DNA of 64,000 bases from IMG/VR virus record IMGVR_UViG_3300021978_000001, positions 224,001-288,000 of that record. One strand, written 5' to 3'. Both the position numbers and the translations under genes were made by a program. Numbering within the stretch: position 1 is the stretch's first letter; each line of letters starts with the position of its first letter. This document shows positions 2,158 to 26,300 of the stretch, piece after piece. Below the pieces are notes generated by a model. The model was not told where the DNA came from. It did not search any database and saw only the letters and a program-made list of their open reading frames with translations. This DNA comes from a virus (lineage: Duplodnaviria > Caudoviricetes).

Positions 2158-2574
2158 TTATGCTTTCTTCGACGCCGCCAGGTGACGACGTGCTACTTTT
2201 TTGGCGAGGGTCTGAGCACTCGCCTGATAAATTCCTGCCAGGGGCTTGGTCGCTTCACGCGAACAGTAATCCGCGTAATCACGCTCCACGCGCCCCGAGA
2301 GCGCTTCGAGACGTTGACGGCACACGTCGATCACAGAGAGAAGCTCGACGGCTTCCTGAGTGATCTCAGTGTGCATTCGCTCAAGCTCTTGCATCTCTTC
2401 TGCGGCCAAATCCAACTCGGACGCCAACATGGGCAAATCACCACAACGAGCCATGACCTTTTTGAGCACCGAGGACGAAGCCATGTATTGGCTCGCGCAC
2501 AGCTCCATGCTCAGGCGCATCTCACGCGTCTTGTTCGCGAAGGTCGAGATTTTACGCTGTTTGGTATCCGCCAC
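2158..2574 (-). CDS. Hypothetical coiled-coil protein with C-terminal KVARRHL motif
   Basis: 138 aa ORF with RBS AGGAGAG, fits tight minus-strand operon. Confidence 0.7.
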   Translation of the reverse strand: MADTKQRKISTFANKTREMRLSMELCASQYMASSSVLKKVMARCGDLPMLASELDLAAEEMQELERMHTEITQEAVELLSVIDVCRQRLEALSGRVERDYADYCSREATKPLAGIYQASAQTLAKKVARRHLAASKKA

Positions 2575-2585
2575 GGTCTCTCTCC

Positions 2586-2960
2586 TTACAGACGACGCAT
2601 CACCGCCAACACGTGCTTACACACACGATGTTGCTGGCGTGGGTCACGCTCACGAGGGGGCGATGCACTACCTCGTGGTCGCCCCTTCAAATAACCCCCA
2701 CGCAATGCGTGGTACTCGGGGCCTTGATACACCCAAAAAAGGCAGGTACAGGAGAACCTGTAGTCTGACCCTGATTGCTCGACACGTACTTCATGCTCAC
2801 CCACCCTCCAGAAAGACGCGTCGCGCTCCAGAGGCTTGAGAGCCCTGGAGCGCTGTATGATTCCTGGTGCGAGCCCACGCTCGATCTGTTGCAGCGTGGC
2901 GCTTTGCTTCTCCAGGTACATACACGCCACACGACGTGCCATCTTGGATGGCTCGGTCAT
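2586..2960 (-). CDS. SWIM-type zinc-finger protein
   Basis: 'FSCTC...VCKHVLAV' CxC-n-CxH signature. Confidence 0.7.
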   Translation of the reverse strand: MTEPSKMARRVACMYLEKQSATLQQIERGLAPGIIQRSRALKPLERDASFWRVGEHEVRVEQSGSDYRFSCTCLFWVYQGPEYHALRGGYLKGRPRGSASPPRERDPRQQHRVCKHVLAVMRRL

Positions 2961-3541
2961 GGGACGGAATCCTGTGACACATCAGGCTTGCTGATATACG
3001 TCGAGAAATTCGAGTAGTCGATCACATCCTGATTCGGCTCTGGCGCACGCTTGGACAGGTCATCTGCACGATCGACGTCGTAGATGGATTCCTGATCTTG
3101 CTTCGTGCGCTCGATGGCCGGGGGGACATCTTCGATGTGTGTCGGGATACCTTGCAATGTCGAAGGATCTGTGATCTTGGCGGCGGCTTCCATGAGCCGG
3201 TCGAGGTCCTTGCGCAAGGCAGGGTTGAGATCCTGACCCGCAGAAGAAACCGCCATTTGATTGACCACATAACTCACAGTTGCCAAATGACGGTTCAGCT
3301 CGGTCAAGGAAGTCTGGAACCGCGTGATCATGTCTCCCGCTTCACGGTAGATATGCTCGCGGTGTTCGGACGCCTCGATGAGCTTCTGACCACGCTCGAC
3401 CATCTCTTCGAGAACAGACGCTTGCACACGCGCCTGAGACAGGGAGGCTTGCATTTGATCGCGAAGTCCCTGTCCCAGATACTTCTGAGCAACCTTGTGG
3501 GCCATGGCTCTTTGGTTACGTGCGTGCATGCTCGCTCTCAC
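2957..3541 (-). CDS. Hypothetical protein (N-terminal KVAQKYL motif)
   Basis: 194 aa ORF; stop overlaps next start (ATGA); exact start uncertain. Confidence 0.7.
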   Translation of the reverse strand: MRASMHARNQRAMAHKVAQKYLGQGLRDQMQASLSQARVQASVLEEMVERGQKLIEASEHREHIYREAGDMITRFQTSLTELNRHLATVSYVVNQMAVSSAGQDLNPALRKDLDRLMEAAAKITDPSTLQGIPTHIEDVPPAIERTKQDQESIYDVDRADDLSKRAPEPNQDVIDYSNFSTYISKPDVSQDSVP

Positions 3542-3547
3542 TACGGG

Positions 3548-4567
3548 TCAAGCCCCGAGTTGGTATTGAGGGAAACTCTTGGCGATGTGCTTTTTCATCG
3601 CATCCGATTCGACTGCGTATGCTGCAATCACGAGGGTCGGGTTATTCGAGTCTTCCAGGAGCTTGAGCTTCGTGCGCCAATGCACCGAGAAATCCCAATC
3701 GAAGGAAGGCATCATCTGACGCGCGAGCGCCAGGCGCGCTTCCTTATCCTGGACCACATCCTCTGCGTTGATCTCAGACTCTTCATGCACCGAGGCCACC
3801 GTCACCGCACCATCACCACCATCCCAGATCGAAGAAAGGCTCTCCTCATCTTGCGCGGTGGTGCCTGCGGTGTGATGCGAGATGCCTTCCATCTCGAACT
3901 CGATGCCTTCACGGACCTGACGAGGCGCAGGTGCTTGAGCAGGAGCCTGGTTCGCGAGCTTTGCCTGGAGATCACGAATCTTGCGCTCAAGGCGCGCGTT
4001 CTCCGCTTCCTGAAGCAGGCGAGCCTTTCGAGCTGCCGTGGACTCCTCGGAAGAGATGGTCGAAGTCGAGGTCATGGCGGAGACGTCCGTAGCCTGCACG
4101 CCCATCCCCTCGGAAGCTCCTTCACCGTAAGCGCGGGTCTGGAACGAAGTACCACCCACCACCACACCTTCCTGTGCTTCGATCGGGTAGTTGGCAGGGT
4201 TCTCATAACGACCGCGCGCGCGCACCGCTTCGATGGTACCCACGTTACGCTCTTCCTCACTGATTGTGGTCGCCGCCACAATGCGATCTTGCTCTGGGGT
4301 CGCGCCAGACATTTCGATCTTGGCGCTGATCGGGCGGTAGCTTTCCACGTTCCCTTGCAACAAGGTTGCCTGGTCCACCAACCAACGCGAACTGATCGCA
4401 GACTTGAGACGAGGAAGGGTATACTCCACACCGTCAATCTTGGCGATGCGCCCGTTGTACTCGATAACATCGCCCTCTTCGATCACGAGCTGTTCCGAGT
4501 TCTCCTTGTCGTTCAAGCCAAGGTGGATCTTCTCCATGGCAATGTAAGTACGGTACTCTTTCCCCAT
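3548..4567 (-). CDS. Hypothetical protein, head-gene cluster
   Basis: Start moved to ATG 4567 (MGKEYRTY) behind RBS AAGGAG; 339 aa. Confidence 0.7.
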   Translation of the reverse strand: MGKEYRTYIAMEKIHLGLNDKENSEQLVIEEGDVIEYNGRIAKIDGVEYTLPRLKSAISSRWLVDQATLLQGNVESYRPISAKIEMSGATPEQDRIVAATTISEEERNVGTIEAVRARGRYENPANYPIEAQEGVVVGGTSFQTRAYGEGASEGMGVQATDVSAMTSTSTISSEESTAARKARLLQEAENARLERKIRDLQAKLANQAPAQAPAPRQVREGIEFEMEGISHHTAGTTAQDEESLSSIWDGGDGAVTVASVHEESEINAEDVVQDKEARLALARQMMPSFDWDFSVHWRTKLKLLEDSNNPTLVIAAYAVESDAMKKHIAKSFPQYQLGA

Positions 4568-4652
4568 CACGTCACTCCTTATCTCGGTAAAAGCCTTCAA
4601 GCCACGAGCACCGTACACCACGGTGCTCTATAAGGGGTGAGCTACAAGCGGA

Positions 4653-7024: not shown

Positions 7025-7903
7025 TCAGCGACGCACCACCAGGCGGACGAGACCGCGAGGGTTGTGGCAGCCGATACCGAGGTTCTCGAAGATCGAGAAG
7101 CCGATGCGGCGCTGTGCAGGGTTGTCTGCCGAGAGGACGGTCAGCTCCGTGCGGACAGGGATGCGACCGAACAGCTCGGGCTCCGTGCAGATGTACACGA
7201 ACCCAGCAGGAACCAGGCGCGACACGATGATCTGGGCACCCCAGAGGGTAGCCTGGAGACCCGTGTTCAGAAGCGTAGCCTGCGACTCGATGTCGAGGAT
7301 CTCGCGACCGAACTTGCGGATGTCGCTGTAGTCCTTGGCGTTCATGTAGATACGCGCGACGCGGAGGTCGTGCTTCTCCACCTCTGCAAACGCGTCTGCG
7401 AGGACGGCCTGCGAGATAGGAGCGATCACCTGGAGGTCAGGGTTGACCGAGCCAGGGATCGAGTCGAAGCCCGTGGTCGCCACAGCGTCGAGGATCGAGA
7501 AGACACGCTCGTCTTCTGCGGCCTGGATCTGGGACTTGCCGAGCTGTTGAGCACGCTCGATGAGGTCGAAGCGACGCTCCTTGATCTGCGTGATCGGGAT
7601 GGTGGGAAGCGAAGCGATCTCGAACAAGGGGATGATCACGCGGCGTGGCTTCTGCACGGCCTGGATGGATTCACCCTCTTCCCCGATGACGTATGCGGTC
7701 ACGTCGGGGTCCTTGTCGTAGATAGGCAATGCGCCATCAGGGAGCTGCTCCACGAGGAAGGTCTTGCGACCCACCGAAGAGTAATCCCTGCGCGAACGCA
7801 AAGGCTGGATCATGGACGCTGCCAGACGCGCGCGTCCTGCGGCGGTCTTGATGAAGCGACCGATGAGCTGCTGCTTGGCAGCGATGTCGAGTGCATTGGA
7901 CAT
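7025..7903 (-). CDS. Major capsid protein (HK97 fold)
   Basis: Start moved to ATG 7903 (MSNALDIAAK) behind RBS AAGGAG; 292 aa; HK97-like pattern (E-loop 'AYVIGEEG', 'IYMNAKDYSDIR', 'LWGAQIIVSRLVPAG', C-terminal 'IGCHNPRGLVRL'); order protease-scaffold-decoration-MCP followed by a terminator. Confidence 0.85.
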   Translation of the reverse strand: MSNALDIAAKQQLIGRFIKTAAGRARLAASMIQPLRSRRDYSSVGRKTFLVEQLPDGALPIYDKDPDVTAYVIGEEGESIQAVQKPRRVIIPLFEIASLPTIPITQIKERRFDLIERAQQLGKSQIQAAEDERVFSILDAVATTGFDSIPGSVNPDLQVIAPISQAVLADAFAEVEKHDLRVARIYMNAKDYSDIRKFGREILDIESQATLLNTGLQATLWGAQIIVSRLVPAGFVYICTEPELFGRIPVRTELTVLSADNPAQRRIGFSIFENLGIGCHNPRGLVRLVVRR

Positions 7904-7961
7904 ATCGAAGTCTCCTTCTTGTGAGCTGTTCAGAGGTGAGCTTGAACCGAGCGCGTCTGGG

Positions 7962-8630
7962 TCAGATGCGCTGGTCAATCACGAGTTCTGCGTGAACGGA
8001 ATCAGGTACGATCGTGATCACACCCAACGCAGTAGCGGCTGCGATGTTCGCAGCATCGCCGTAGGCCACCTCGTGCACATCAGCCGACTCCGAACCTGCT
8101 GCCGAGACAGCGGTGGTCACGTAGCCGTTGACCGATGCGTAGACGTACAGCCCATTCTCGTACAGGAGCGCATCACCCTGTGCCCCGCTGGTCGTTCCTG
8201 CACCACCAGGTGCCTGAACAGCGGTTTCATAGAGACGCAGACCCACCGTGCCCTGTGCGGACATGTAGGGACCCTTGTTGCTCGCAGCAGCAGGGGTGTT
8301 CTCGTAGGCGTTCCCGGCTGCATCATTGATGAAGAGACCGAGAGGGCGGATTGCGCCAGCAGCCGCAGCAGCGCCCGTTGGGCCACCGATGAGGCCGTTT
8401 CCTGCGGCGGGGCGCGTGAAGGCAACCGAAGCGCCAAGCACGCCACGCTTTGGAGCGGCGGGGAGGGTTGTGGACACAGCGGCAGCCGCCGTGATCACGG
8501 GAGGATTGGTCTGAGTGAACGCGTCCGTGGTGAGTTCTGCCGCGAAAGAGTTCAGCGTACCCACGTAAAGAATACGCAGAGCGGAGCTGCTTTCGGTGAA
8601 ATCACCCGATGCCTGTCCTGGGAGTGCCAT
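7962..8630 (-). CDS. Putative head decoration/cement protein
   Basis: 222 aa Ala/Gly-rich; lies between scaffold and MCP. Confidence 0.6.
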   Translation of the reverse strand: MALPGQASGDFTESSSALRILYVGTLNSFAAELTTDAFTQTNPPVITAAAAVSTTLPAAPKRGVLGASVAFTRPAAGNGLIGGPTGAAAAAGAIRPLGLFINDAAGNAYENTPAAASNKGPYMSAQGTVGLRLYETAVQAPGGAGTTSGAQGDALLYENGLYVYASVNGYVTTAVSAAGSESADVHEVAYGDAANIAAATALGVITIVPDSVHAELVIDQRI

Positions 8631-8720: not shown

Positions 8721-10145
8721 TCAGAACTCACCCTTGGAGAATGCGTCAGAGACGTCGGGTGCCGAAGTCCACAGATTCGAGAGGACATCGCCCCCTCCCT
8801 GTGCACTCGATTCCTTCACCCGCCCGAGAGACTGAATGTTCTTCTTGGTGCTTGCCTGGCGCTGGCCAGCAGGCTGCGTCGAGTATTGACGCGACATCAT
8901 CGCTTCGAGATCTTCATCTCCAGCCATCATCGCGTCATCATCGAAGGTGTCCATGGCAGGCATGAGGTCGAGCCCCATTCCCATGCCCATGGCTTCCTCT
9001 TCCATACCCGTGAGCATGGCGTCGAGGTCGTCTTCCATCTCCATGCCGTCATGCATCGAGTCGCCACCCACAGGCGCCCACTCGTCACCACAGCTATCGT
9101 GCTCCATGTCCTCTTCGTCATCTTCGCTGTAGACGAGAGAGTCGTGCTGCATGCCGTCACGCTCAAGCGCGTTCAGCTCTGCGAGCATGGAGTCAAGCGA
9201 GGCTTCCTTATCGGAGTCCTCGTCTTCATCATCATGATCTTCGGCCACCTTGAGACCAGCGGCCTTGAGTGCTGCCTGAACTTCTGTGCGGATGATGTCA
9301 GCAAGAGAAGCCTCCTTGGACTCCTCTTCCTCTTCTTCCTCATCATCCCCAGCAGTCACAGTCGAAGCGTCCTTATCGGACTCGTCTTCGTCCTCTTCAG
9401 CCATCTTGAGGCCAGCAGCCTTGAGCGCAGCCTGGACTTCTTTCTGGACGAGATCAGCGATCGAGGACTCCTTGTCAGACTCTTCATCCTCGTCTTCGTC
9501 CTCGTCCTCATCGTCTTCTGCATCCTTGGAAGCAGCTTGCTTGGCTTCCGCCTGCATCTGACGAAGCATCTCATCGGGGGTCAAGGAAGCGTCCTTATCG
9601 GACTCGTCGTGATCTTCCTCCTCATCGTCTCCCGCGAGGCGCGAAAGCTCTTCTGCTTCCGCGAGGCGAAGAATGGTCGCCACGAGCGCGTCATCAGGCA
9701 TGCTCATGAAGTCGAGAGCCTGCTCGGTGATCACTTCATCGCTGGCAGTGGGGATGAGAAGGCTGGCAATACGAACGCACTGGAGGGCCTTCTTTTCAGC
9801 GTAGCGCTGCATCTGTGCGGCGCGCTGTGCAGCCTGGCGTGGGTTGGTAGGCCCGTCCGAGACACCATTGGTGTCGGTGGGCTTGAACGACCCTGCGTTA
9901 TCGTAGGGCTGGCCGTCCATTGCCTCATCCACGTCCTTGTGATCGTGGGTGTTGTCGAGCATGGTAGGCATCGACACTTCATTGCGACCCTCTTGCTCGA
10001 AGCGGCTCAGGTCTTCCACAGGCTCTTCGGCCCATGCGGAAGGCTCACCCGTCATGTAATCTTCGACAGGGGGGTTGGTCTTATCTTGATTCATGGTGTA
10101 CGGGTCAGCGGAACGCTGCCACGTAAGTCGCTTACGACGGCTCAT
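8721..10145 (-). CDS. Putative scaffolding protein (very acidic, internal repeats)
   Basis: Start moved to ATG 10145 (MSRRKRLTW) behind RBS GGAGG; 474 aa, D/E/M-rich, repeated 'SDK[ED]AS' and duplicated 'EVQAALKAAGLK[MV]AE'; between protease and MCP. Confidence 0.7.
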   Translation of the reverse strand: MSRRKRLTWQRSADPYTMNQDKTNPPVEDYMTGEPSAWAEEPVEDLSRFEQEGRNEVSMPTMLDNTHDHKDVDEAMDGQPYDNAGSFKPTDTNGVSDGPTNPRQAAQRAAQMQRYAEKKALQCVRIASLLIPTASDEVITEQALDFMSMPDDALVATILRLAEAEELSRLAGDDEEEDHDESDKDASLTPDEMLRQMQAEAKQAASKDAEDDEDEDEDEDEESDKESSIADLVQKEVQAALKAAGLKMAEEDEDESDKDASTVTAGDDEEEEEEESKEASLADIIRTEVQAALKAAGLKVAEDHDDEDEDSDKEASLDSMLAELNALERDGMQHDSLVYSEDDEEDMEHDSCGDEWAPVGGDSMHDGMEMEDDLDAMLTGMEEEAMGMGMGLDLMPAMDTFDDDAMMAGDEDLEAMMSRQYSTQPAGQRQASTKKNIQSLGRVKESSAQGGGDVLSNLWTSAPDVSDAFSKGEF

Positions 10146-10268
10146 GTTGATCCTCCAGAGCGGTAGGGGTCTTCGGTGCTTGCAAGTCCGGTCACTTACC
10201 CCTGCCATACAGGGGAGCGTCAAAGACGGTGCCTATAAGCGTAAAACCGGCGAAAATCCCTATTTTTT

Positions 10269-10325: not shown

Positions 10326-11843
10326 TCAGTTGAGCAGCGTGGCCGCATGTAGTGCTTGTTCGGCTTCTGCACGGGTCGGTACACGCCCCAGAGACGCCAT
10401 CAATGCCTTGAGGTAGGTCTTGGTATCCGCGTGACGCTTGAATGCCCCAGCGTGGACGAGAGCCTTATAGAACGAAGCCTCACGTACCTTACGGTTGGGG
10501 TTTTCACGATCTGCCATATACAAGGCGGTCACAATCTCGGAGTTCGCGAAGCGAGGACGCAAAGTCTCGTAACGCTCGGGTGACCCCATCGTGTAAAGAA
10601 GTGCGAACAAGCGACGGCGCGTGTCGATGTCAGGGACGTCCTGTGCATAACGGCGCGTGAAGAGTGCATAGGCCGCGTGCACATCCATCGAAGAATGATG
10701 GATGCTATCATTGGGCGCCATCTCCGCGCCGGGCATGTCCTTCTTGGGCTTCTCATCGCGAAGCTCCTTGCGAAGCTCGCGCATGGCCTTGTCCTTGACC
10801 TTGGTCTTGAACTGGTCCACGGCGTCTTCGAGAGGGGACTTCTCCTCTTCGGTATCCTCTTCCTCATCATCGAAGTCGAACGCCAACTTGAGCTGCATGT
10901 TGATCTGATCCATGGCAGCCTGTGCTGCATGCGCCGCCGTCTTGCGGAACATGTCCGTCCAATCCGGGATCACCTGCGATTGCATGGTGTATGCATGTTC
11001 GATGCGTTGAGAGAGATCAGCGCTATCGTAACGACCAGGGACGTGCGTCGTGGGGCCACCTTCGAGGATGTTACGCATCACCGCTCCCTTGAACGCGGGA
11101 TTGCCCACCCAGGATGCCTCGATAAAGACCACAGACTCGGGGTCCGTGTGGTGTCCACACAGCTCCGCGACCACGCGAATGGCGCCATCGGGACCGATGA
11201 ACTTGTTGCCCTTCTCATAGCGGACGTGACGGCACAACTCGACGTCATCCTTGGCGACGTTGCCGCACTTGGTGCACACGCTGTAAGCAATGGTGCAGCC
11301 CATCGACAAGGTGTTCAACTCACCCGACTCGATGCGCGCGATCAGATCACGATGCTTGCGGTCTGTTGCCACGAGGATGTCAACATAGACGGTATCCCCG
11401 AGGTCTCGGGCCACCGCGTCGATGATCTTCCCCTTGGACAGCTCGGGCACCTGGATATGCTCGACGTAATTCTCTGCACCTACGAAGGTGTTGTACGTCG
11501 CCATCAAGAGCTTGCGCTCCCAGGCATCCCCGTTCTGGTTGATGTAACGCGAGCACTCAGGCTTGATCAGGTAGTCGGCATGGGGGCGGTTGATCTCCTC
11601 CCCATCTGCGTTCTTGACCTTCGAGCCTGTCTTGACGTTGGGGGCATCATCCACATCGACCGATGCAATGATCGTGCAGTGGGTCAAGAGATAATCATCA
11701 GGGCTGTACTGGGACAACATCGTATTCGCGACACGACTCCCATGCGCGCCCGCCTTGAGCGCGGCAGCACGGGACATGTTCCACTGATCGAGACCGACCA
11801 TCGGATGTTGAACAACAGCATTTGCAGTACGGATCATGGCCAT
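10326..11843 (-). CDS. Prohead (capsid maturation) protease with Cys-rich insertion
   Basis: 'NQNGD', 'NYVEH' (His), 'TLSMGC' (catalytic Ser), 'CTKCGN...LCRH', 'EASWVGNPAFKGA'; typical HK97/assemblin-like protease motifs; position upstream of scaffold and MCP. Confidence 0.8.
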   Translation of the reverse strand: MAMIRTANAVVQHPMVGLDQWNMSRAAALKAGAHGSRVANTMLSQYSPDDYLLTHCTIIASVDVDDAPNVKTGSKVKNADGEEINRPHADYLIKPECSRYINQNGDAWERKLLMATYNTFVGAENYVEHIQVPELSKGKIIDAVARDLGDTVYVDILVATDRKHRDLIARIESGELNTLSMGCTIAYSVCTKCGNVAKDDVELCRHVRYEKGNKFIGPDGAIRVVAELCGHHTDPESVVFIEASWVGNPAFKGAVMRNILEGGPTTHVPGRYDSADLSQRIEHAYTMQSQVIPDWTDMFRKTAAHAAQAAMDQINMQLKLAFDFDDEEEDTEEEKSPLEDAVDQFKTKVKDKAMRELRKELRDEKPKKDMPGAEMAPNDSIHHSSMDVHAAYALFTRRYAQDVPDIDTRRRLFALLYTMGSPERYETLRPRFANSEIVTALYMADRENPNRKVREASFYKALVHAGAFKRHADTKTYLKALMASLGRVPTRAEAEQALHAATLLN

Positions 11844-14306: not shown

Positions 14307-16331
14307 TCATGTGATCCGGCGAAGAATACCGAGGAGGCGTTCGTAAGTCGGAGCATCAATCATGCCTGCATACTTGTACTGCGACGCCGTGTGGATCGCA
14401 TAATCGAGAGCCAGACACAGAAGCATATCTTCCTGTGCACCTTCCATCTCACGCACATAAGCAAGGCGAGAATCCGTCAACCAGAGCTTCGCTTCGCTCA
14501 AGATGAGCTGGTAGTCTTCCAACTCCAGGCACATCGACCCCAGGGGCAATCGCCACTCGGGCGCGGGCGGGCTCTCCTTGCGGGGGAGGGGACCCGGGAG
14601 TCCTCGGTACTGCGCGGTGCGTGCACGATGCGTCGCGCTCGCACGGTATGCACGAGTCATCCCATGCGCGAAACTCTTTGCGAGCACATGAGCTTTCTTC
14701 TCATTATCCATCAGGGCCTCCAGGAGTTGGGCCATCCAGGCGCCAAAGCCATCACGAGACACATTCTCGGGGGTCTTGGTCGCGCGCTGTTCTTGCTGAC
14801 GCCTCATGATAAACGCCTTGACCTGAATCGGATCGAAGGTTCGAGCACGTCCAGGCTCATCAGGCGTCATACGCAACTGCTCGAAGTAGCCTTGCGTCAA
14901 GAAATCATCGGTCAAGTAATCGAAGAGGCGTTGACGAAAAGCCTGACTCAACACAGCTCCGTCACTCGGAGTGTCCGCATCGTAATCCAACGCCATGCGG
15001 TAGTCCGGGTTATCCTTTACCAAGTCCACAAGCTCTTTATCGGAGAGCTTGCGCATGTTATCCACGAATCCCTTGACGGCATCCGGGTCAGTAAAGTCTA
15101 CCTTGCTGGGATCAAGACCCTCCTTACCCGCGTCCTCCATGGTCTTGAGGAGCTGACCATAGCCTGTGGTAGCATCAAAGCTCTTCTTGGCCAGGACTTC
15201 ACCCATCATACCGCGCAACTCGGTGTAATACTTGTGCGCGCTCGACCCCTCCTCTTGCTTTTCGATCACTTCATCGAGGTCTTCGATGGCCTTGGCCACG
15301 TCCGCCTTCGAGGAGAACAAGGCAGACTGGTAGAGCTTGGGTGAATCGAAATTGAGCTGACGCACCATCGCGGTATCATCGAGCTTGTTGAGTGCTGTCT
15401 TCGAGGGCATCAGCTTCGTGATGCTCACGTTCTCATCCGAGAGCGAAGGCAAGTTACGAAGCTCACCACGCGCCTCTTCGTACACTTTCTGGATCTCTTC
15501 GTAGTACGCCGCCTTGTTCCGATCGTTCTCGCGCACCGCTTGCGCCATGCGCTCAGACACATCCGCCAGGCCAGCATCATGGTCATACACGTCCCAGTTC
15601 TTGGCATGAGTCTCCAACTTCTGGCGCGTCTCTGCGGAGAGTTCACCCTCGAAGTCTTCGGGCATCTCCTGGACACCTTCAGGGTACGGCTGCTTTTGTT
15701 CGAGCATCACCTGGCGGGCCGCTTGCGAGTCGATCGAATCAGGGTTATCCGAGACAGCCTTGTCATACAGATCATCGTAGGTTGCCCCTGAATCACGATA
15801 CTTCTGCGCTCGCGCGTCCACCTTCTCTTCCGGTGTCATGTCTTCGGGGGCCTTGGGCTCCTCTGGAGCGACAGACTGCCCAAGCTCCTCCATAAGCGAC
15901 CTCTCGGTCTCGGAAAGCTCTTCGACAGGCTCATCGGCCTCTGGTCGAATCTGAAGCTGCTTTTCGTGCGGCTCCTCTTCCTCGACCTCCTCTTCAGGTG
16001 ACGCCTCCTCTTCCGTCGAGGTCTCGTCTTGCTCCTGAATCGTGTGATCCTTACGGTCCGCCCCCGGGTGCTTTTCCTTGTAGGCTTCCCACGCCTCTTC
16101 GGTCGCAAACTCCATGGCCATCAAGTACAAGCGCGCGACCCTCCCCCCGATGTCCTTGTAGTTCAGGGAGAGGTCCTTGTCCTTGGTGTCTGTGTCTCGA
16201 TCCTTCTGCTCGACACGACCACGCTCCTTATCACGGCGCGGGGGTTTCTTGGTCGGGCTCTTACGCACCAAGCGCTGTGCCTCTTCTTCCTCGCGCTCTG
16301 CATCTGACTTTGTAGCGTCACGTTTCATCAT
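14307..16331 (-). CDS. Large hypothetical protein between portal and protease (candidate inner-head protein)
   Basis: 674 aa; basic/acidic N-terminus, RVARLYL motif, Glu-rich linker; overlaps the portal stop. Confidence 0.75.
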   Translation of the reverse strand: MMKRDATKSDAEREEEEAQRLVRKSPTKKPPRRDKERGRVEQKDRDTDTKDKDLSLNYKDIGGRVARLYLMAMEFATEEAWEAYKEKHPGADRKDHTIQEQDETSTEEEASPEEEVEEEEPHEKQLQIRPEADEPVEELSETERSLMEELGQSVAPEEPKAPEDMTPEEKVDARAQKYRDSGATYDDLYDKAVSDNPDSIDSQAARQVMLEQKQPYPEGVQEMPEDFEGELSAETRQKLETHAKNWDVYDHDAGLADVSERMAQAVRENDRNKAAYYEEIQKVYEEARGELRNLPSLSDENVSITKLMPSKTALNKLDDTAMVRQLNFDSPKLYQSALFSSKADVAKAIEDLDEVIEKQEEGSSAHKYYTELRGMMGEVLAKKSFDATTGYGQLLKTMEDAGKEGLDPSKVDFTDPDAVKGFVDNMRKLSDKELVDLVKDNPDYRMALDYDADTPSDGAVLSQAFRQRLFDYLTDDFLTQGYFEQLRMTPDEPGRARTFDPIQVKAFIMRRQQEQRATKTPENVSRDGFGAWMAQLLEALMDNEKKAHVLAKSFAHGMTRAYRASATHRARTAQYRGLPGPLPRKESPPAPEWRLPLGSMCLELEDYQLILSEAKLWLTDSRLAYVREMEGAQEDMLLCLALDYAIHTASQYKYAGMIDAPTYERLLGILRRIT

Positions 16332-18246
16332 CGGTGTCCATAGCAGTTTGCATCATCTGAGCCACGCGTTGACTCAGATCAGGATTTGCGGCGAGCGCTC
16401 CCGCGATATAGGAAGCCATGTGTGCCTCATCAGAAGGCGGCATGGCAGCCCCCTTCCTACGAGTCGAACCGAAGCGCGAATTGGTATCCTTGGGCGGCTT
16501 GTAAGACAGCTCCAGGTAGTCCGCCACGCGCTCCAGCATATCCGACTGCTCGGGCAGGGAACGTCCAAGCTCCGAATACGAACTCCTCAAAATCTCGTTG
16601 AACAACGAATCGTTCATGGTCAAGAAATCCTGACGCAAGCGCTCCTCGACCGCCTGGGGGTCGAGGTTGAACAGCTCCAGGATATATCCAACCGCGAGGC
16701 TTCCCTTCTGGTAGAGGTTGAACATCGCATCGAACGTGTCACGGTTATCGCGCAAGGCGAGACGCGTGAAGCTCAACTCGGGGTACAACACCACCTCATT
16801 GCCAAACTCATCATACTCTACGAAGCCCTTCTTGATCGCCACGGGGCGGAACAGGTTCTCTTCGACGTACTGCTGCATGCGTTCGCGATACAACATATAC
16901 CTCGTGTTGATCACCTCGATATTGATGCGCTCTCCTGAGTAGCTCGACTCACCCGTGAGCATGGACTCGGTGACACCCAGACCCGCGAAGAGCTGGCGAT
17001 CGGTGATGTCATACTCGGAGTTCAGGTCGAGCAGGCGATCACGCGCAGAGATCTCCTCCCAGGTCACCTGGAAGTTTGTGATCAGCGAGTAATCAGGGTC
17101 GAGCAACATCAAGTCCACCTGCTCGCGCAGCTCCTCGACGTCTGCGAGGCTCATGTCCTCTGCATAAATCAAGCGCTTGGGAGTCATGGCGCGCGATGCA
17201 ATCGACGTCTGCGCCTGACGCAGCTTGTCGCGATACACGAGCACGCGCATCACAGACTGCAAGATCGAGATGCCGTGATCTTTCCCCGGCTCCTTGTTTC
17301 GCGGGAGGTGATACACGAACGAACCCTCGTCCGGGTCTGTCCCGAGAGGAAGGTTCTCTCCCTGCGCGATGTAGTGGATGATTTCCTCGGGGACATCAGC
17401 CAGCGCTTCGATGGCGTTGGGGTCCTCCATAATAGCAGCCTGGACCAGAGCCTTGGTGCGCTCGTCCGGGACCAGCTCGACCTTGTAAGCTCTGGAGTAA
17501 GAATAAGTCTCCAGCCTTACCTGGTCGGGGGGCAGCAAGATCACACGATCCCACCCCTTGTAGTGCTGCTGCTTGTATGCTCGAATACGATCATCCGCAT
17601 CATCGACACGTTGACGAATGATGCTTGTTTCCCCCGAGGCGGTATCGAGATGATTGACGTCCTCCGTATAGACGTACTCGGGAACATCGACCTCGGAATC
17701 CTCCGCAAACAGGAAGGCTTCCCCGACCACATAGAACTCACGCGTGGCATCCACCAGGAGATTCAAGAGGTCGATACGCTTGACCATATCCTCGTAGAAT
17801 TTCAAGATTTGGCGGTTGCGCTTGGGGTCCTTCCCCTTGGGCATCGTCAAACGGAGCTTCGATAGTGGCAGCTCGGTGTGCAAGATCACCGCTTGCTGCA
17901 CATAAGGGTCGTTATTGTAGAAGAAACGGTAGTACGACCGCATCTCCGCCAGGTTTTGAGGCAGCTCCAGGAAATCAGTGGAGAGCTGTGGCGAATAGAT
18001 GTTGGTCGCGCTTCCCAGGGAGACGTTAGCCGAACCCATCCCGAGACCGCCCCCCATACCCCCACCAAAGCCATAACCGTAAGCGCCGGAGCCTCCTACA
18101 TAGTTGCTGACCTTGTTGGCGCGCGATGCGATGCGTGAGCTAGGCCGTACCTCTGCTTGACCCGAAGCAGACATCATGCGTCTTACCTGAGAGACAGAGG
18201 ACACCGTGATCGCATCCGCGTTTTGCTTGTTCAATTTCGAGGGCAT
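16318..18246 (-). CDS. Portal protein
   Basis: 642 aa; 'DPYVQQAVILHTELPLSK', 'FYVVGEAFLF', 'GISILQSVMRVL...KLRQAQ', 'QLFAGLGVTESMLTG'; directly downstream of terminase. Confidence 0.8.
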   Translation of the reverse strand: MPSKLNKQNADAITVSSVSQVRRMMSASGQAEVRPSSRIASRANKVSNYVGGSGAYGYGFGGGMGGGLGMGSANVSLGSATNIYSPQLSTDFLELPQNLAEMRSYYRFFYNNDPYVQQAVILHTELPLSKLRLTMPKGKDPKRNRQILKFYEDMVKRIDLLNLLVDATREFYVVGEAFLFAEDSEVDVPEYVYTEDVNHLDTASGETSIIRQRVDDADDRIRAYKQQHYKGWDRVILLPPDQVRLETYSYSRAYKVELVPDERTKALVQAAIMEDPNAIEALADVPEEIIHYIAQGENLPLGTDPDEGSFVYHLPRNKEPGKDHGISILQSVMRVLVYRDKLRQAQTSIASRAMTPKRLIYAEDMSLADVEELREQVDLMLLDPDYSLITNFQVTWEEISARDRLLDLNSEYDITDRQLFAGLGVTESMLTGESSYSGERINIEVINTRYMLYRERMQQYVEENLFRPVAIKKGFVEYDEFGNEVVLYPELSFTRLALRDNRDTFDAMFNLYQKGSLAVGYILELFNLDPQAVEERLRQDFLTMNDSLFNEILRSSYSELGRSLPEQSDMLERVADYLELSYKPPKDTNSRFGSTRRKGAAMPPSDEAHMASYIAGALAANPDLSQRVAQMMQTAMDTDDET

Positions 18247-18262
18247 GTTCTACTCCAAATAA

Positions 18263-18643: not shown

Positions 18644-18861
18644 TTCTGATCTCTCTTCCAGGCAACATACGCCTTGCACGCTTTCTTGAGCGCGGTCCAG
18701 GCATCAGGGTCAGCATTCGCGAGCGCCTCCCACGAGCCTCCTGTGTTCTCATAGAGCGCCGCGACAGCATCGAGAACAGGCACAGGGCGTTCAGTCACGC
18801 CCATTTTGCGCAACGCTTCATCCACGCAAAGGTGAGCGAAGCGGTCATAACGCTCTGCCAT
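18640..18861 (-). CDS. Hypothetical protein
   Basis: Probable start ATG 18861 overlapping the terminase stop; 73 aa. Confidence 0.6.
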   Translation of the reverse strand: MAERYDRFAHLCVDEALRKMGVTERPVPVLDAVAALYENTGGSWEALANADPDAWTALKKACKAYVAWKRDQK

Positions 18862-20861: not shown

Positions 20862-20881
20862 GGGTCCTCCTTGATGGGGGT

Positions 20882-21436: not shown

Positions 21437-21459
21437 GACCTCCTTAACTGTGGTTCCGG

Positions 21460-22146: not shown

Positions 22147-22164
22147 CGAGGTTCTCCTTAGTGT

Positions 22165-25113
22165 TCAGTCGATCTGCCAATCGGCAGTCATTTCCATGTC
22201 GAAACTTCCTGGCCCTTCCTCGTGCAGATCGAAGTCCAAGCCCCCCGCAGAAGGCGCGAAGTCGAACTCGTTCATCAAGGCGTATCCCGTGGGCGCCGAA
22301 GAGCTGGTATCACTTGCCTTCTGAAACTGAGCTTGCGCTTCATGCTTGGCGGCCTCACGCTGCTGCAAGTAGGCTTGTGCCTTCGCGACATCCACACCGC
22401 GCTGTTCGAGCTGACCATGGTGTGCCTTGACATACCCGGAGTGCTTGGCGTTGTGGTGAGGAAACGCCGTGTGCGCGAGATACGTGCGCTGCTTGGCCGT
22501 TCCAGAAGCCTCGCGCAGGCGAGATGCTTCCGCCTGTGTCAGCTCACCCTTGCGGACACGCTGACCCAAAGCACGATCGACCGTGGCGTCACTGTACTGT
22601 GGCGAGGCAACGAGCTTGCGGTCATAAACCTTGCACTGCCCCTCGACATTGAAGCGGCAACCTGTACACTTGGAGGCTTGCACCACCTGATTGACTGTCG
22701 TCGAAGTCTTCTCGGCACCAAGATGGCAATCATCATAGGCATCCGCGACCACGTAAGCGCGACCATAAAGACCCTCTTCCTCACGCATCGCGAGCACGAC
22801 CGGCGCCTGGTCCACGATCTTCTCGTAGGAGAAGGCACGCTTGATGTCATCCGAGAGACGCGCACCATACGACCCTGCCATCATACGATCACGCATGAAG
22901 CGACCCGCGCGCGTCTTGAAAAATGCACCGAGAGGAGGAATCGAACCCTTCGCTTTGAAGTCAGACGCCGTAACCACCTCGATGATCTTGCGCGCTTGCT
23001 TGAGACGATCCGGCGAACTCGACGCACGCTTGGAAGCCGTGCGCTCGTCACCTGCCAGGTAGATGTCCCCGAGCGTGTCATAACCGAGACGCTTCGAGAG
23101 ACGATCGAGCATGCGATCCCCTCCTGCCTGACGGAGATAGTCTTCGAGCACAGCGAACGCACGCTTGGTCTTGGTGGTCGCGAGACGCTCGACGAACGCG
23201 CGCATGCGATCATTACTGACATACTCGGGGCGCCACTGACGGTAGGGGCTATCGTGTGTCGCGACCTTGGCCTTGACCTGGCGCGCGTATGCCGCATGAG
23301 CAATCTTCTGAACCTCGGGGCCTGAGAGCTTACCGAGCTTATCGATCGTTCGACGCAAATAAGACTGACGCGCGTTCCCTTCGAGCTGCTTCAAATCCGC
23401 CATACGCGCCGCAATGGGTGCGTGCGCGTGCGCAGACGTGAAGAACGTCTCACGGTTATCATCAGTGAGGTAAGGCAACTGCGCCAGATGAGCGTGGCGC
23501 TCTCCCAGGGACGCGAGTTGCTTCGCGGTCACCAGGCTCGTGTCCACATACAAGCGACCGAGCAAATGCAAGTGTGCCTGGAGATCGCGCATCGAAGGAT
23601 CAGATGCCACGAGCGTCGAGACACGCTTTCCGTGATCTCCCGAGAGCATCGCCTCGATAACCTCGGTGCGGTTGGCTACCTTGCGCTTGTTGGCAACCTT
23701 CACACGCTCAGGGGTGTATGCCGCGAACCGATCGAGCGCCTCCCCTTCTGTGATACCCTCGGTAGGATCATAGACATACTTGGCCGCGTGCATCTGCACA
23801 CGTTGCGGCAAGGGACGCGCATACACGCCCTGAGCAAAGGAGAGCGCCTCCTCGCGAGATGCCTGACGCATCATAGCCCAGAGCTTGTCAAAGCGCTCCT
23901 GGTGCTTTTCAGCGCGCTTCTGAGTAGGCCCATGCGTCAACTCAAGGTAGCGGTTGAGCACCGATGCCAGGAGAGAAGCATGACGCACATCGACAAACGA
24001 CGCGCTCGTGTAAGACGAGATCTCGGTTTCATTGTAGGGAATCCCCACGATGAAAGGAGGTGGCGTATCCAGCGCCTCGATAAACGAAGCTGCTTCCTTG
24101 TAGGTCGGGAAGTACGCGATGTTCGCGTACAACGAACCCATCAAGTGGAGATCTTGCTTGAGCGGCGCGAGGTCCGGGTCATGCTTGACACGTTCGACGA
24201 TCGTAGGCCCATGCTCACCCGAGAGCATCGCCTTTGCCCAACGAAGCTGCTTGCGGCGAAGCTGTACATTCCCGACGATCTCTTGCGTGCTCTCGGAAGC
24301 CATCAGGCGCCTGGCCGCTTCCTGCGGAGAAACGGAATCCGCGAGGTGAGCCTGCACAGGCTTGTGGCCCTGTGCAACTTCCCTGGCGCGCGGAGCACGA
24401 AGCATGGCTTGCTGGATGCGCTCCTTGACAGGCAACCCTTGCAGGTCTGCGATGTCCTTGTCTCGCAGGCGACCCTTGACTTGATCCCAAAGCGACTCAT
24501 CATACTGCACATCGAAGACAAGCTGCTTGGTAAAGACCGCGCAACGTCCTTCCTTGTTGTGCACACAATCCACGCACTCGCTTTTGGCGAGGACATAATT
24601 TGCCTGACGGTTGGTCGCGGTGAGATCCCGGACGAGACCTCCAGCGGCGCACTTCGGGAACAAACGCGAATCGAGATACACCGAGCCCAGAAGCCCTCGC
24701 TCACCGAGGACCGCGCGAATACGATCGAGCGACGCACTGAGTGTCCGAGGATCGAACTTCAACTTGAGGTTGGCGATAACCTGCTTGGCCTTGACACCCG
24801 CTTGAACCTGCGCCTTCGTGAAGTGCTCGACAAGCGCAACCGCTTCTGCATCCGTAATGCGCCCGAAGTGTGGACGCTCGGACCAAAACGGTGTCGTGGG
24901 TTGCACAGGCTCGCGATTTTCAGCGGCGAGATGAAACGCCTGCGCATCAGTCAAGTCCTTGAAATGTGCCAGCAGCTCGGGGACGGAATCCAGGTTTTGA
25001 TGTGGCAGCGTCTCCATATAGAGACGGTACTCTTCAGGGCTCACCTCCAACCAGGACAGGTCGTTGACGGGCTCTTCATCGAGAAAATGTCCAATATCTC
25101 CCAGGTCAGCCAT
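22165..25113 (-). CDS. Large internally repeated Cys-motif protein (candidate virion core protein)
   Basis: Start moved to ATG 25113 (MADLGD) behind RBS AGGAGG; 982 aa; two C-x2-C-x2-N-x-EG-x-C modules and repeated 'MLSG.HG...L..G.LY'. Confidence 0.8.
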   Translation of the reverse strand: MADLGDIGHFLDEEPVNDLSWLEVSPEEYRLYMETLPHQNLDSVPELLAHFKDLTDAQAFHLAAENREPVQPTTPFWSERPHFGRITDAEAVALVEHFTKAQVQAGVKAKQVIANLKLKFDPRTLSASLDRIRAVLGERGLLGSVYLDSRLFPKCAAGGLVRDLTATNRQANYVLAKSECVDCVHNKEGRCAVFTKQLVFDVQYDESLWDQVKGRLRDKDIADLQGLPVKERIQQAMLRAPRAREVAQGHKPVQAHLADSVSPQEAARRLMASESTQEIVGNVQLRRKQLRWAKAMLSGEHGPTIVERVKHDPDLAPLKQDLHLMGSLYANIAYFPTYKEAASFIEALDTPPPFIVGIPYNETEISSYTSASFVDVRHASLLASVLNRYLELTHGPTQKRAEKHQERFDKLWAMMRQASREEALSFAQGVYARPLPQRVQMHAAKYVYDPTEGITEGEALDRFAAYTPERVKVANKRKVANRTEVIEAMLSGDHGKRVSTLVASDPSMRDLQAHLHLLGRLYVDTSLVTAKQLASLGERHAHLAQLPYLTDDNRETFFTSAHAHAPIAARMADLKQLEGNARQSYLRRTIDKLGKLSGPEVQKIAHAAYARQVKAKVATHDSPYRQWRPEYVSNDRMRAFVERLATTKTKRAFAVLEDYLRQAGGDRMLDRLSKRLGYDTLGDIYLAGDERTASKRASSSPDRLKQARKIIEVVTASDFKAKGSIPPLGAFFKTRAGRFMRDRMMAGSYGARLSDDIKRAFSYEKIVDQAPVVLAMREEEGLYGRAYVVADAYDDCHLGAEKTSTTVNQVVQASKCTGCRFNVEGQCKVYDRKLVASPQYSDATVDRALGQRVRKGELTQAEASRLREASGTAKQRTYLAHTAFPHHNAKHSGYVKAHHGQLEQRGVDVAKAQAYLQQREAAKHEAQAQFQKASDTSSSAPTGYALMNEFDFAPSAGGLDFDLHEEGPGSFDMEMTADWQID

Positions 25114-25702
25114 GGCCACCCCTCCTGTTGACGTTGAGCGTCGCCTTCTTGACGACCTCTTCCTTGTACTCACGCTCGACGAACGCATCAGGGTTCAAGC
25201 TGATCTCATCAGATTCTTCGAGCATCTGCTCGGCTTCTGCTTCCTCGGAAGCGGGGATAGCTAGAGCGGTAGCGTCCCAGTGCGCGGCACGAAGTTCATC
25301 ATAAAGTGTGTCCTGGAGCGCGCTCAGGGTCTCGACGGAATCCGTCATCGACTTGCGCATCCCCTTGATCGTCTGAATAAACCCTGCGCCTCCCAGCTTC
25401 CCATCAGGGGAAATGGAGACTGCCTTGATCTTGGAGAAGGTCGAGTGCGCGCTGATCAAGTGACCGAGCGCGACAGAGACCGACCACAGAACCTTCGCGA
25501 GTGGCTTCTTGGCTTTGGGGTTGTACTCATAGGCGTCGGGCAGAACGCGACCTTCCGGTCCCTGGTCCTTGATGAAACGAATTTCACCAGCGGTCCTGGT
25601 CATGGTATAACCCGAAGCCTCCAGATGGCGACGCGCGACCTCAGACGCCAGACGAAGCGTGCGCTCAGGCGTCATCGCATTTGCGGTGTGCTTTCGGGTC
25701 AT
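25106..25702 (-). CDS. Hypothetical protein (EVARRHL motif)
   Basis: 198 aa ORF in tight operon. Confidence 0.75.
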   Translation of the reverse strand: MTRKHTANAMTPERTLRLASEVARRHLEASGYTMTRTAGEIRFIKDQGPEGRVLPDAYEYNPKAKKPLAKVLWSVSVALGHLISAHSTFSKIKAVSISPDGKLGGAGFIQTIKGMRKSMTDSVETLSALQDTLYDELRAAHWDATALAIPASEEAEAEQMLEESDEISLNPDAFVEREYKEEVVKKATLNVNRRGGHG

Positions 25703-25708
25703 GGTGTA

Positions 25709-26002
25709 TCACTCCGCCTTGAGGGGGTTACCCTCACTATCCGTAAGGCGCTCGACCACCCAGTGGCCATCTTCCCCTTGACGCAGCTTCCAGAAGTCCT
25801 GCTCCGACTTGCGAACCAGAAGATCCTGTGCGACACGACGGAAACCCTTGAGCTGCTTCACAGACGCCACACGAAAGCTCTGAGGCGGCGCGGCAACCTG
25901 AGCAGCACGAAAATCGACAGGCTCGGGCTCCTCACCGAGGTAAGAATCCAGGCCGGATTCGCCCATGGTCAATGCGTGAATATCGAAGTCTTTGTAGTCC
26001 AT
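25709..26002 (-). CDS. Hypothetical protein
   Basis: 97 aa, RBS GGAG; 'FRVAS...GFRRVAQDLLVRKSEQDFW'. Confidence 0.7.
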   Translation of the reverse strand: MDYKDFDIHALTMGESGLDSYLGEEPEPVDFRAAQVAAPPQSFRVASVKQLKGFRRVAQDLLVRKSEQDFWKLRQGEDGHWVVERLTDSEGNPLKAE

Positions 26003-26027
26003 GGTGGTATCTCCCTTGGAGGTGAGT

Positions 26028-26300
26028 TCAAAAGCCAGTCAACGTGAGCCCATCCTTGTGCGCAGCATCCGCGACAGCCGAAGCCACCTCACGGTACTGT
26101 GTCAAGAAAGTCACGTAATCAAAGCCCCGGGTCGAGGCCAGGCGATTGGGGTAAGCCGCTTGCATGCGAGCGCTGAAGGAGGTCAGATGCCGCTCATCAC
26201 TGAAATACACAGTCAGCGTCGAGGTGACCTGACCCACGCGCTCCAGATAAGCATGCGCGACTGTCTTGGACATCACCACATGTTTGGTGGTCTTTCGCAT
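26028..26300 (-). CDS. Hypothetical protein (TVAHAYL motif)
   Basis: 90 aa ORF, first gene of the morphogenesis block. Confidence 0.6.
   Translation of the reverse strand: MRKTTKHVVMSKTVAHAYLERVGQVTSTLTVYFSDERHLTSFSARMQAAYPNRLASTRGFDYVTFLTQYREVASAVADAAHKDGLTLTGF

What the first reader, a model, noticed from the sequence alone, without database searches (positions are those of the whole stretch)
2179..26264. Second shared peptide motif [RKET]-V-A-x-x-[YH]-L on six unrelated head-region proteins
Seen: KVARRHL (2199-2179, C-terminal), RVACMYL (2933-2913), KVAQKYL (3496-3476), RVARLYL (16142-16122), EVARRHL (25642-25622), TVAHAYL (26264-26244). All are near protein termini and none is in a recognised enzyme. 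Looser copies: RVANTML (protease), RVAALAR (ParB-like), KVVAALF (12960 ORF). Inference: a short amphipathic helix acting as a second docking signal for the prohead core, or an extended protease recognition site.
Basis: partly seen in the sequence, partly recalled or inferred. Interest (0 to 1): 0.7.

Follow-up and report, generated by a model that had tools for sequence, protein, structure and literature searches.

The report
Shared terminal docking helix on megaphage proteins
A 437-kb uncultured phage and its relatives put the same 10-residue helix at the very start or end of many otherwise unrelated small proteins, mostly encoded among the head genes; it is probably a docking or address tag for virus assembly, but its binding partner is still unknown.

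Summary
All six peptides are in frame in real genes that are conserved in relatives. The full motif is [L/M/I]-[small]-x-[R/K/T/E]-V-A-x-x-[Y/H]-L, an amphipathic helix.

- **Numbers:** the genome holds about 10 copies against 1.1 expected. Nine lie within about 30 residues of a terminus (two C-terminal), and eight lie in the 40-kb head/neck module.
- **Conservation:** in orthologues the motif positions stay fixed while the flanks diverge.
- **Spread:** a variant (R-V-A-x-R-[F/Y]-L) is enriched at N-termini in two complete relatives and appears in at least 37 protein families of the clade.
- **Independence:** it does not depend on the 30-residue "tag 1" found earlier in this genome, which those two relatives lack.

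No carrier has a known function. The one complex prediction gave no answer, so the partner and destination are inferred from gene context only. The prohead-loading reading is plausible (about 0.4).

The scan had already noted this "RVA-type" leader on two genes just upstream (e1-5379139), and different tags in other huge phages.

The parts
2179..2208 (-). Tag 2 copy LAKKVARRHL, C-terminal (6 residues before the stop) in ORF 2158-2574 (138 aa)
   Evidence: The C-terminal helix is kept in orthologues as K-V-x-A-R/T-Y-I/M followed by a basic tail.
2913..2942 (-). Tag 2 copy MARRVACMYL, residues 7-16 of ORF 2586-2960 (124 aa, weak SWIM-like Cys/His domain)
   Evidence: The Val is an invariant column in a 26-member family alignment, and the helix V-[AIV]-x-x-[YWF]-[LM] is conserved; in long forms it is internal. 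AlphaFold2 gives residues 1-18 pLDDT below 50, so they are not packed on the domain.
3476..3505 (-). Tag 2 copy MAHKVAQKYL at the N-terminus of ORF 2957-3541 (194 aa from the first GTG; relatives start at the equivalent Met)
   Evidence: The closest relatives begin MHRKVAKKYL, MHMHRRVAKKYL or MHKRIAKKHM; distant orthologues keep only the V-Y-L part.
16122..16151 (-). Tag 2 copy IGGRVARLYL, residues 61-70 of ORF 14307-16331 (674 aa), the gene directly after the portal gene; it follows a conserved charged N-terminal module
   Evidence: The module plus an R-[VI]-[AV]-x-R-[FY]-L helix is conserved across the clade.
25622..25651 (-). Tag 2 copy LASEVARRHL, residues 18-27 of ORF 25106-25702 (198 aa)
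   Evidence: Orthologues carry DIARRVATDYL, NLAKRVASEYL and RIAERVASQYL with unrelated flanks. 37 of 103 homologues keep a broad form in the first 45 residues, against 1 in a control stretch. Modelled as helix 12-29.
26244..26273 (-). Tag 2 copy MSKTVAHAYL, residues 10-19 of ORF 26028-26300 (90 aa)
   Evidence: Orthologues carry VVMSKKVATAYL, VVMSKKVASAYL and VIMSKRVAAKYI.
16318..18246 (-). Portal protein gene (context)
   Evidence: PHROG portal families, E 1e-27
10326..11843 (-). Head maturation protease gene (context); its RVANTML is not a tag
   Evidence: PHROG 18299, E 4e-13; family N-termini
8721..10223 (-). Scaffold-like protein gene, assigned by position and composition only (context)
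   Evidence: no family match; conserved N- and C-terminal ends around a low-complexity middle
7025..7978 (-). Major capsid protein gene, HK97 fold (context)
   Evidence: PHROG 2522, E 5e-51; 75% identical to LR745208.1 and 40% to Bacillus phage G

Best explanation
Tag 2 is a short linear docking motif: a roughly 10-residue basic amphipathic helix, [L/M/I]-small-x-[R/K]-V-A-x-x-[Y/F/H]-[L/M]. It sits at the extreme N-terminus, at the extreme C-terminus, or behind a disordered charged segment. Through it, many unrelated and fast-evolving small proteins of this megaphage clade bind one common partner.

Most likely the partner is part of the assembling virion (capsid shell interior, scaffold/core or portal region). 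The helix would then work as an address tag that brings accessory or cargo proteins into the head or neck. In concept this resembles the T4 capsid-targeting sequence or an encapsulin cargo-loading peptide.

- **Shown:** the motif is real, it is terminal, and it is under selection at exactly its hydrophobic-face and Arg positions. It sits on unrelated proteins, it is clade-wide, and it is independent of tag 1.
- **Inferred:** that it binds a protein partner, that the partner is a virion component, and that carriers end up in particles.
For: - **Real, position-specific motif.** See the statistics.
- **Selection on the motif only.** In close relatives the tags of the 25106 and 26028 proteins are kept while the preceding residues are unalignable. 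Motif columns are invariant in 14 of 28 cases against 8 of 69 for other columns. In the 25106 family, 37 of 103 homologues keep a broad form N-terminally against 1 in a control stretch.
- **Recurs on unrelated proteins across the clade.** Terminal hits occur in at least 37 BLAST families. The core is enriched in the first 25 residues in complete relatives G1 (8 seen, 0.41 expected, P 1e-8) and G4 (4 seen, 0.28 expected, P 2e-4), with 0 in the reversed controls. Tandem copies exist.
- **Either terminus works.** This fits a peptide recognised on its own.
- **Consistent with a flexible attachment.** The tag follows a 60-residue charged segment in the post-portal family. It has pLDDT below 50 in the 2586 model. 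In the 25106 model it is a separate helix followed by a low-confidence stretch.
- **Virion context.** Eight of 10 carriers in this genome lie in 40 kb around the terminase, portal, protease, scaffold-like and capsid genes (P 2e-7). The post-portal carrier sits between the portal and protease genes, where T4 encodes its prohead-core proteins gp67 and gp68 (T4 gene order is from my own knowledge; the core composition and the CTS role are as summarised in PMC5694885).
Against: - No carrier has a known function or a detectable relative in a phage with a virion proteome, so there is no direct link to particles.
- In relative G1 the N-terminal carriers are scattered over the genome: only one of eight lies within 20 kb of the capsid gene.
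- In two families the motif helix is an old family feature and is internal in the long forms. In the 26028 protein it runs almost directly into the first strand. Some copies may therefore be part of the fold rather than free tags.
- Orthologues at about 75-80% capsid identity have often lost the strict motif.
- Similar 'capsid-loading' readings of shared tags elsewhere in this scan were later given low odds.
Confidence: 0.42

Rival explanations
1. The helix docks carriers onto a hub that is not part of the virion, for example the phage-encoded GroEL-like chaperonin or another chaperone. It would then be a client or co-chaperone recruitment tag rather than an address for the capsid.
For: All five related genomes tested encode a Cpn60-family chaperonin above Pfam's cut-off. 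In G1 the carriers are spread over the genome. The core of the 25106 protein has a helix, beta-hairpin, helix topology whose best though non-significant PDB matches are prefoldin beta subunits (E about 1, probability 0.6-0.8). From my own knowledge, GroEL binds basic amphipathic helices.
Against: No dedicated chaperonin tag is known. The chaperonin gene lies about 13 kb beyond the nearest carrier. The structural match is not significant. In this genome the carriers cluster in the head module.
Confidence: 0.13
2. The helices bind each other. Carriers would assemble into a heteromeric complex through bundling of their similar amphipathic helices, with no separate receptor.
For: Three adjacent genes (2957, 2586 and 2158) all carry the motif, and two of them are fused into one ORF in locus L005. 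Tandem copies occur within single proteins. Paired hydrophobic positions are typical of helix-helix packing.
Against: Ten residues are short for a stable bundle. An invariant Arg and small Ala positions suggest a shaped pocket rather than a zipper. Many carriers are lineage-specific singletons.
Confidence: 0.12
3. The copies have no common function. They are N- or C-terminal structural helices of separate families that look alike through shared composition, descent of a few families, and the reader's selection.
For: In the 2586 and 2957 families the helix is an old family feature, partly internal. Blind pattern enumeration does not single out VA..YL. The strict motif is near background in G1 and G4.
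Against: Flank positions that were never selected for fit in 10 of 10 copies. N-terminal enrichment in G1 and G4 is far above expectation and above the reversed controls. Conservation falls on the motif positions while the flanks diverge. The carriers are unrelated.
Confidence: 0.15
4. The motif is a propeptide or extended recognition element for the prohead protease, removed during maturation.
For: The T4 capsid-targeting sequence is both a targeting signal and a cleaved propeptide. An acidic residue or Ala often follows the Leu, as in Y-L-E-A.
Against: Copies sit 4-9 residues from C-termini. No consistent cleavage-type position exists. The motif is helical, whereas proteases bind extended strands. 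The protease's own look-alike is part of its conserved domain.
Confidence: 0.08

Closest known systems
Capsid-targeting sequence (CTS) of phage T4 internal proteins IPI-III and Alt (Mullaney and Black 1996, as summarised in PMC5694885)
   Same: A short (10-20 residue) shared terminal peptide on otherwise unrelated proteins of a large myovirus. Here most carriers are encoded in the head module (T4's IP and alt genes are not), and the post-portal carrier sits where T4 encodes core proteins (T4 gene order is from my own knowledge).
   Different: The T4 CTS is strictly N-terminal and is cut off by the prohead protease after Glu. Tag 2 also occurs at C-termini and behind internal linkers, has no consistent cleavage site, shows no sequence similarity to the CTS, and packaging of its carriers has not been shown.
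Encapsulin cargo-loading (targeting) peptides (own knowledge)
   Same: A motif of about 10 residues, at either terminus, on unrelated cargo proteins. The shell there also has the HK97 fold, and cargo genes tend to lie near the shell gene.
   Different: Encapsulin peptides are extended Gly/Ser/Leu-rich motifs that bind a pocket of the shell protein. Tag 2 is a basic amphipathic helix in a tailed phage that also has a scaffold, a protease and packaged DNA. Binding to the capsid protein is untested.
C-terminal coat-binding helix-turn-helix of the P22 scaffolding protein, and the C-terminal capsid-targeting tail of the HK97 protease (own knowledge)
   Same: Terminal, basic, helical peptides that dock a protein to the inside of an HK97-fold procapsid. 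A C-terminal position is allowed.
   Different: Each of those is a feature of one protein, not a motif shared by many unrelated proteins.
Tag 1 of the same genome (earlier finding e1-5379136): a leader of about 30 residues, L-I-R-L-G-N-A-N-P-E-L-R-x-x-L-K-P-V-I
   Same: Same gene module, same kind of carriers (small proteins of unknown function), and mostly N-terminal with some C-terminal copies.
   Different: The sequence and length differ (two helices against one). No protein carries both. Tag 1 is confined to the nearest relatives (8 of 47 large loci, none in G1 or G4), whereas tag 2 is found across the clade.
A-kinase anchoring protein (AKAP) amphipathic helices (own knowledge)
   Same: Paired hydrophobic residues repeat every four positions on one face of a short helix that docks into a helical groove.
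   Different: This is a resemblance of pattern only. No D/D-type receptor is known here, and the idea that tag 1 plays that role fails because relatives have tag 2 without tag 1.

Membership tests
T4-type capsid-targeting sequence | Short shared peptide at the N-terminus of otherwise unrelated proteins | tested here: met
   Seven of 10 copies lie within the first 31 residues, and the carriers are unrelated. However, two copies in this genome and several in relatives are C-terminal.
T4-type capsid-targeting sequence | Removed by the prohead protease at a conserved site directly after the tag | tested here: inconclusive
   No consistent residue follows the motif: E or D follows in 4 of 10 copies and A in 3. 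C-terminal copies cannot be N-terminal propeptides. Cleavage itself cannot be tested with these tools.
T4-type capsid-targeting sequence | Carriers are found inside proheads or mature heads, and the tag is sufficient to load a foreign protein | not testable with these tools
   The phage is uncultured, and no carrier has a relative in a phage with a virion proteome.
Encapsulin-type cargo-loading peptide | Short conserved motif at either terminus of unrelated cargo | tested here: met
Encapsulin-type cargo-loading peptide | Flexible linker between the peptide and the cargo domain | tested here: inconclusive
   The tag sits behind a 60-residue charged segment in the post-portal family. It lies in low-pLDDT stretches in two models. 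In the 26028 protein only about 5-8 residues separate it from the domain.
Encapsulin-type cargo-loading peptide | Binds the inner face of the HK97-fold shell protein | not testable with these tools
   Only one complex job was available, and it gave no verdict (see Tried and rejected).
Encapsulin-type cargo-loading peptide | Cargo genes lie next to the shell gene | tested here: inconclusive
   Met in this genome, where 8 of 10 carriers lie in a 40-kb module. Not met in relative G1, where the carriers are scattered.

The most novel reading that the evidence does not exclude
This megaphage clade uses a bi-terminal, encapsulin-like cargo-loading helix that binds the inside of its HK97-fold capsid or its core. 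The window's phage runs two orthogonal address tags (tag 1 and tag 2) that sort two sets of a dozen or so proteins each to different places or stages of head assembly. The tag would then serve as a sequence handle for reading the packaged and injected protein cargo of hundreds of uncultured huge phages directly from their genomes.
Probability: 0.2. Interest if true: 0.8.

Novelty: new variant of a known kind. Interest (0 to 1): 0.55.

Why it matters
Huge phages carry hundreds of genes of unknown function, and how their very large heads are built and loaded is largely unknown. A short, recognisable tag shared by dozens of unrelated proteins would give three things:
- a way to group these dark proteins by destination;
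- a concrete peptide for pull-downs to find the hub it binds;
- if it is a capsid address, a tool for loading foreign proteins into large capsids, as was done with the T4 CTS.

Two independent tags in one phage also raises the question of whether head cargo is sorted into classes. If the partner turns out to be a chaperone or another hub instead, the tag would still define a new interaction network in these phages.

Tried and rejected
- **Complex prediction.** It gave no verdict and counts neither for nor against binding.
- **Tag 1 as receptor for tag 2.** I considered a helix-loop-helix dock for an AKAP-like helix and dropped it. A tag 1 profile finds 15-16 carriers here but none in the complete relatives G1 and G4, which do have tag 2.
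- **Blind pattern enumeration.** Listing all four-residue gapped patterns does not single out VA..YL. The top real patterns are a Pro repeat and ML.N.F, so I did not rest the case on raw enrichment.
- **KVADPYL.** This string, at the N-terminus of the scaffold-like protein in several relatives, is a false positive. It contains Pro, and the window's own orthologue reads RSADPYT.
All three were rejected.
- **A possible 11th copy.** RVAHCYL lies about 12.4 kb before the window's start, in an 88-codon ORF that overlaps both neighbours and has no start codon in the 12 codons before the motif. I treat it as doubtful.
- **Family searches.** Pfam, PHROGs and NCBIfam on carriers from three genomes gave nothing functional.
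- **Structure and feature searches.** Foldseek against the PDB and BFVD, and the ESM Atlas, gave no significant match.
- **Near-identical phage DNA.** Megablast of window 14307-25188 (portal, terminase and neighbouring head-module genes) against the phage collection found no match.
- **Literature.** A full-text search for six versions of the peptide string found no paper.
- **Two carriers outside the window.** A search for relatives in IMG/VR found none.
- **Tunturiibacter phage Tunturi_5.** The motif is absent from its 41-kb head region (48% capsid identity), and its 'DNA ejection protein' is unrelated to the post-portal carrier.
- **ClpP.** No ClpP family gene occurs in five related genomes, so a phage Clp degron is unlikely.


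Full report
**Setting**

The window is bases 224001-288000 of a 437,490-bp virus record with direct terminal repeats. All its genes lie on the minus strand. The region under study holds a classical head module:

| Gene | Window coordinates | Evidence |
|---|---|---|
| Large terminase | 18861-20861 | |
| Portal | 16318-18246 | |
| Prohead protease | 10326-11843 | |
| Scaffold-like protein (500 aa, assigned by position only) | 8721-10223 | |
| Unassigned 222-aa protein | 7962-8630 | |
| HK97-fold major capsid protein | 7025-7978 | |

The capsid protein is 75% identical to that of the 485-kb uncultured phage LR745208.1, 48% to Tunturiibacter phage Tunturi_5 and 40% to Bacillus phage G. IMG/VR holds at least 595 related capsid genes.

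**The observation**

All six peptides are present as written, in frame, in ORFs that are real genes, since each has orthologues elsewhere. There is no other six-frame match in the window.

Three residues before the basic position there is always L, M or I, and two residues before it there is always a small residue. The full form is [L/M/I]-[A/G/S/T]-x-[R/K/T/E]-V-A-x-x-[Y/H]-L.

The whole genome adds further copies with the same flanks:
- an N-terminal copy 10.1 kb before the window's start (RVAQQYL);
- an N-terminal copy at +85 kb (TVAQRYL);
- a C-terminal copy at +183 kb (RVASVYL);
- a doubtful copy 12.4 kb before the window's start.

**Is it more than chance?**

The strict motif is expected 0.17 times in the window and 1.13 times in the genome. 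Six and about ten copies are seen. Shuffled proteomes average 1.06 with a maximum of 5 in 300 runs, and the reversed proteome has none.

The motif was defined after the fact, so I also ran a blind enumeration of four-residue gapped patterns. VA..YL is not among the top fifteen, and shuffles reach comparable P values. Raw enrichment is therefore not decisive.

Four independent facts are decisive:
- The two flank positions, which were not part of the definition, fit in 10 of 10 copies (joint chance 3e-14).
- Nine of ten copies lie in the first 30 or last 15 residues (P 1.5e-6).
- Eight of ten lie within 40 kb of a 437-kb genome (P 2e-7).
- With the tag masked, the carriers show no similarity to one another.

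**Conservation**

In the closest relatives the orthologues of the 25106 protein begin with unalignable residues, followed by DIARRVATDYL, NLAKRVASEYL or RIAERVASQYL. Orthologues of the 26028 protein read VVMSKKVATAYL, VVMSKKVASAYL or VIMSKRVAAKYI. Over four orthologue sets the motif columns are invariant in 14 of 28 cases, against 8 of 69 for neighbouring columns (Fisher 1e-4).

Among 103 database homologues of the 25106 protein, 37 keep a broad form of the motif in the first 45 residues, against 1 in a control stretch. A distant subfamily has shortened it to P-x-x-V-A-R.

The gene after the portal gene has a clade-wide N-terminal module: a conserved charged segment, then L-S-L-N-Y-K-x-I-G-G-S, then a helix R-[VI]-[AV]-x-R-[FY]-L. 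In some relatives this module sits at the C-terminus or in the middle of a larger ORF.

In the 2586 family the Val of the motif is an invariant column, and the helix V-[AIV]-x-x-[YWF]-[LM] is conserved. In the long forms of that family it lies about 120-150 residues from the start.

At about 75-80% capsid identity the strict motif has often decayed.

**Spread in the clade**

I fetched two complete relatives, G1 (447,761 bp) and G4 (407,078 bp). The core [RK]-[VI]-A-x-x-[FYH]-[LMVIF] occurs in the first 25 residues of 8 proteins in G1 (0.41 expected, P 1e-8) and 4 proteins in G4 (0.28 expected, P 2e-4). The reversed controls give none. There the aromatic residue is mostly Phe (MGTDIVQRVARRFL, MTHLPLRVARKFL and similar).

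Over 80 capsid-centred loci plus three genomes, terminal copies fall in at least 37 BLAST families, most of them singletons, at both N- and C-termini. Tandem copies occur.

Fifty-five non-redundant terminal copies give these free positions:
- position -3: L 21, M 7, I 4;
- position -2: A 25;
- position +4: R 22;
- position +7: A or E most often;
- position +8: A most often, then R.

**Relation to tag 1**

The same module carries the roughly 30-residue leader found earlier (e1-5379136). A profile built from it finds 15-16 carriers in this genome, and no protein has both tags. The profile finds nothing in G1 or G4. Among 47 large loci, 8 have tag 1, 16 have a terminal tag 2 within 10 kb of the capsid gene, and 9 have tag 2 only. 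Tag 2 is therefore the older and more widespread system and does not need tag 1.

**What the carriers are**

None matches a family of known function in Pfam, PHROGs or NCBIfam. There is only a sub-threshold SWIM zinc-finger match in the 2586 protein.

- AlphaFold2 on the 2586 family gives a moderately confident small domain, with the first 18 residues, including the tag, below pLDDT 50.
- AlphaFold2 on the 25106 family (53 sequences, mean pLDDT 83) gives the tag as helix 12-29. A low-confidence stretch follows, then a helix, beta-hairpin, helix core.
- The best PDB matches of that core are prefoldin beta subunits, but they are not significant.

**Mechanism**

The hydrophobic residues fall in pairs every four positions (-3/-2, +1/+2, +5/+6). 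This gives one non-polar face on a basic helix. Together with a terminal position at either end, selection confined to that face and the Arg, and unrelated carriers, this is the signature of a short docking motif recognised by one partner.

The gene context in this genome points to virion assembly. The post-portal carrier occupies the place where T4 encodes prohead-core proteins, and the T4 core recruits internal proteins through a 10-20-residue targeting peptide (PMC5694885; T4 gene order is from my own knowledge). I therefore rate an assembly address tag as the best single reading (0.42).

The partner is unknown, and the only complex job gave no verdict (listed under Tried and rejected). Against the reading stand the scattered carriers in G1, the family-intrinsic and partly internal helices, and the lack of any particle data.

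Rival readings:
- docking to the clade's conserved chaperonin;
- mutual bundling of the helices, since three adjacent carriers exist and two are fused in L005;
- no common function;
- a protease propeptide, which fits worst because of the C-terminal copies and the helical nature.

**Comparison and novelty**

In concept the nearest known systems are the T4 capsid-targeting sequence and encapsulin cargo-loading peptides. The motif matches neither in sequence. Unlike the T4 sequence it works at both termini and shows no cleavage site. I found no paper containing the peptide strings. I class it as a new variant of a known kind, with the function still to be shown.

Noticed in passing
G000:C1 about 109,700-372,400 (outside the window; for example window-relative 73049-73678, 122537-124814, 145726-148367): Fourteen proteins contain M-L-[ILVYE]-N-x-F, against 0.36 expected. 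In most it is the very N-terminus, and many lie in plus-strand clusters of 170-200-aa proteins. This is either a paralogous family or a third leader type.
   Followed up: no
window 14307-16331 (residues 1-60) and loci L002, L020, L054, L072, L074: The charged module before the tag of the post-portal protein (T-K, E-R-E-x-E-E-A-E-R-L-V-R-P-x-P-K-x-K-P-P-R-x-D-x-R-R-E, D-P-D, L-S-L-N-Y-K) has 16 invariant columns in 28 sequences. In most phages it is N-terminal, but in five loci it is C-terminal or internal to a larger ORF. It may be a mobile linker or a junction in a polyprotein.
   Followed up: partly
portal C-termini in related loci (for example L012, L014, L061) and window 16318-16420: The last helix of the portal protein in most relatives reads D-[IV]-x-x-[KR]-I-A-x-Y-L-x-L. 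It resembles tag 2 but has one residue fewer between the Ala and the Tyr. The window's own portal ends D-L-S-Q-R-V-A-Q-M-M.
   Followed up: no
window 7340-7370 (capsid protein residues 204-212): The capsid protein has an internal segment D-L-R-V-A-R-I-Y-M-N-A, invariant or nearly invariant at every position over 46 sequences, that matches the tag core. It may be a coincidence or a helix that the tags imitate.
   Followed up: no
L005:17873-18949: The orthologues of the adjacent carriers 2957-3541 and 2586-2960 are fused into one 358-aa ORF. This hints that the two proteins work together.
   Followed up: no
G000:C1:197191-198711 and four relatives: A GroEL-like (Cpn60) chaperonin gene is conserved in all five related huge-phage genomes tested. 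No ClpP gene was found in any of them.
   Followed up: partly
L002:36106-37269, G4 327522-327920, L014:1322-1696: Tandem double copies of the tag occur within one protein, for example a C-terminal K-V-A-M-R-H-L-A-S-I-V-A-K-R-H-L-A-R.
   Followed up: no
window 25106-25702: The predicted core of this conserved 198-aa protein is a long helix, a beta-hairpin and a long helix. Its best PDB matches are prefoldin beta subunits, with E about 1, so they are not significant.
   Followed up: partly
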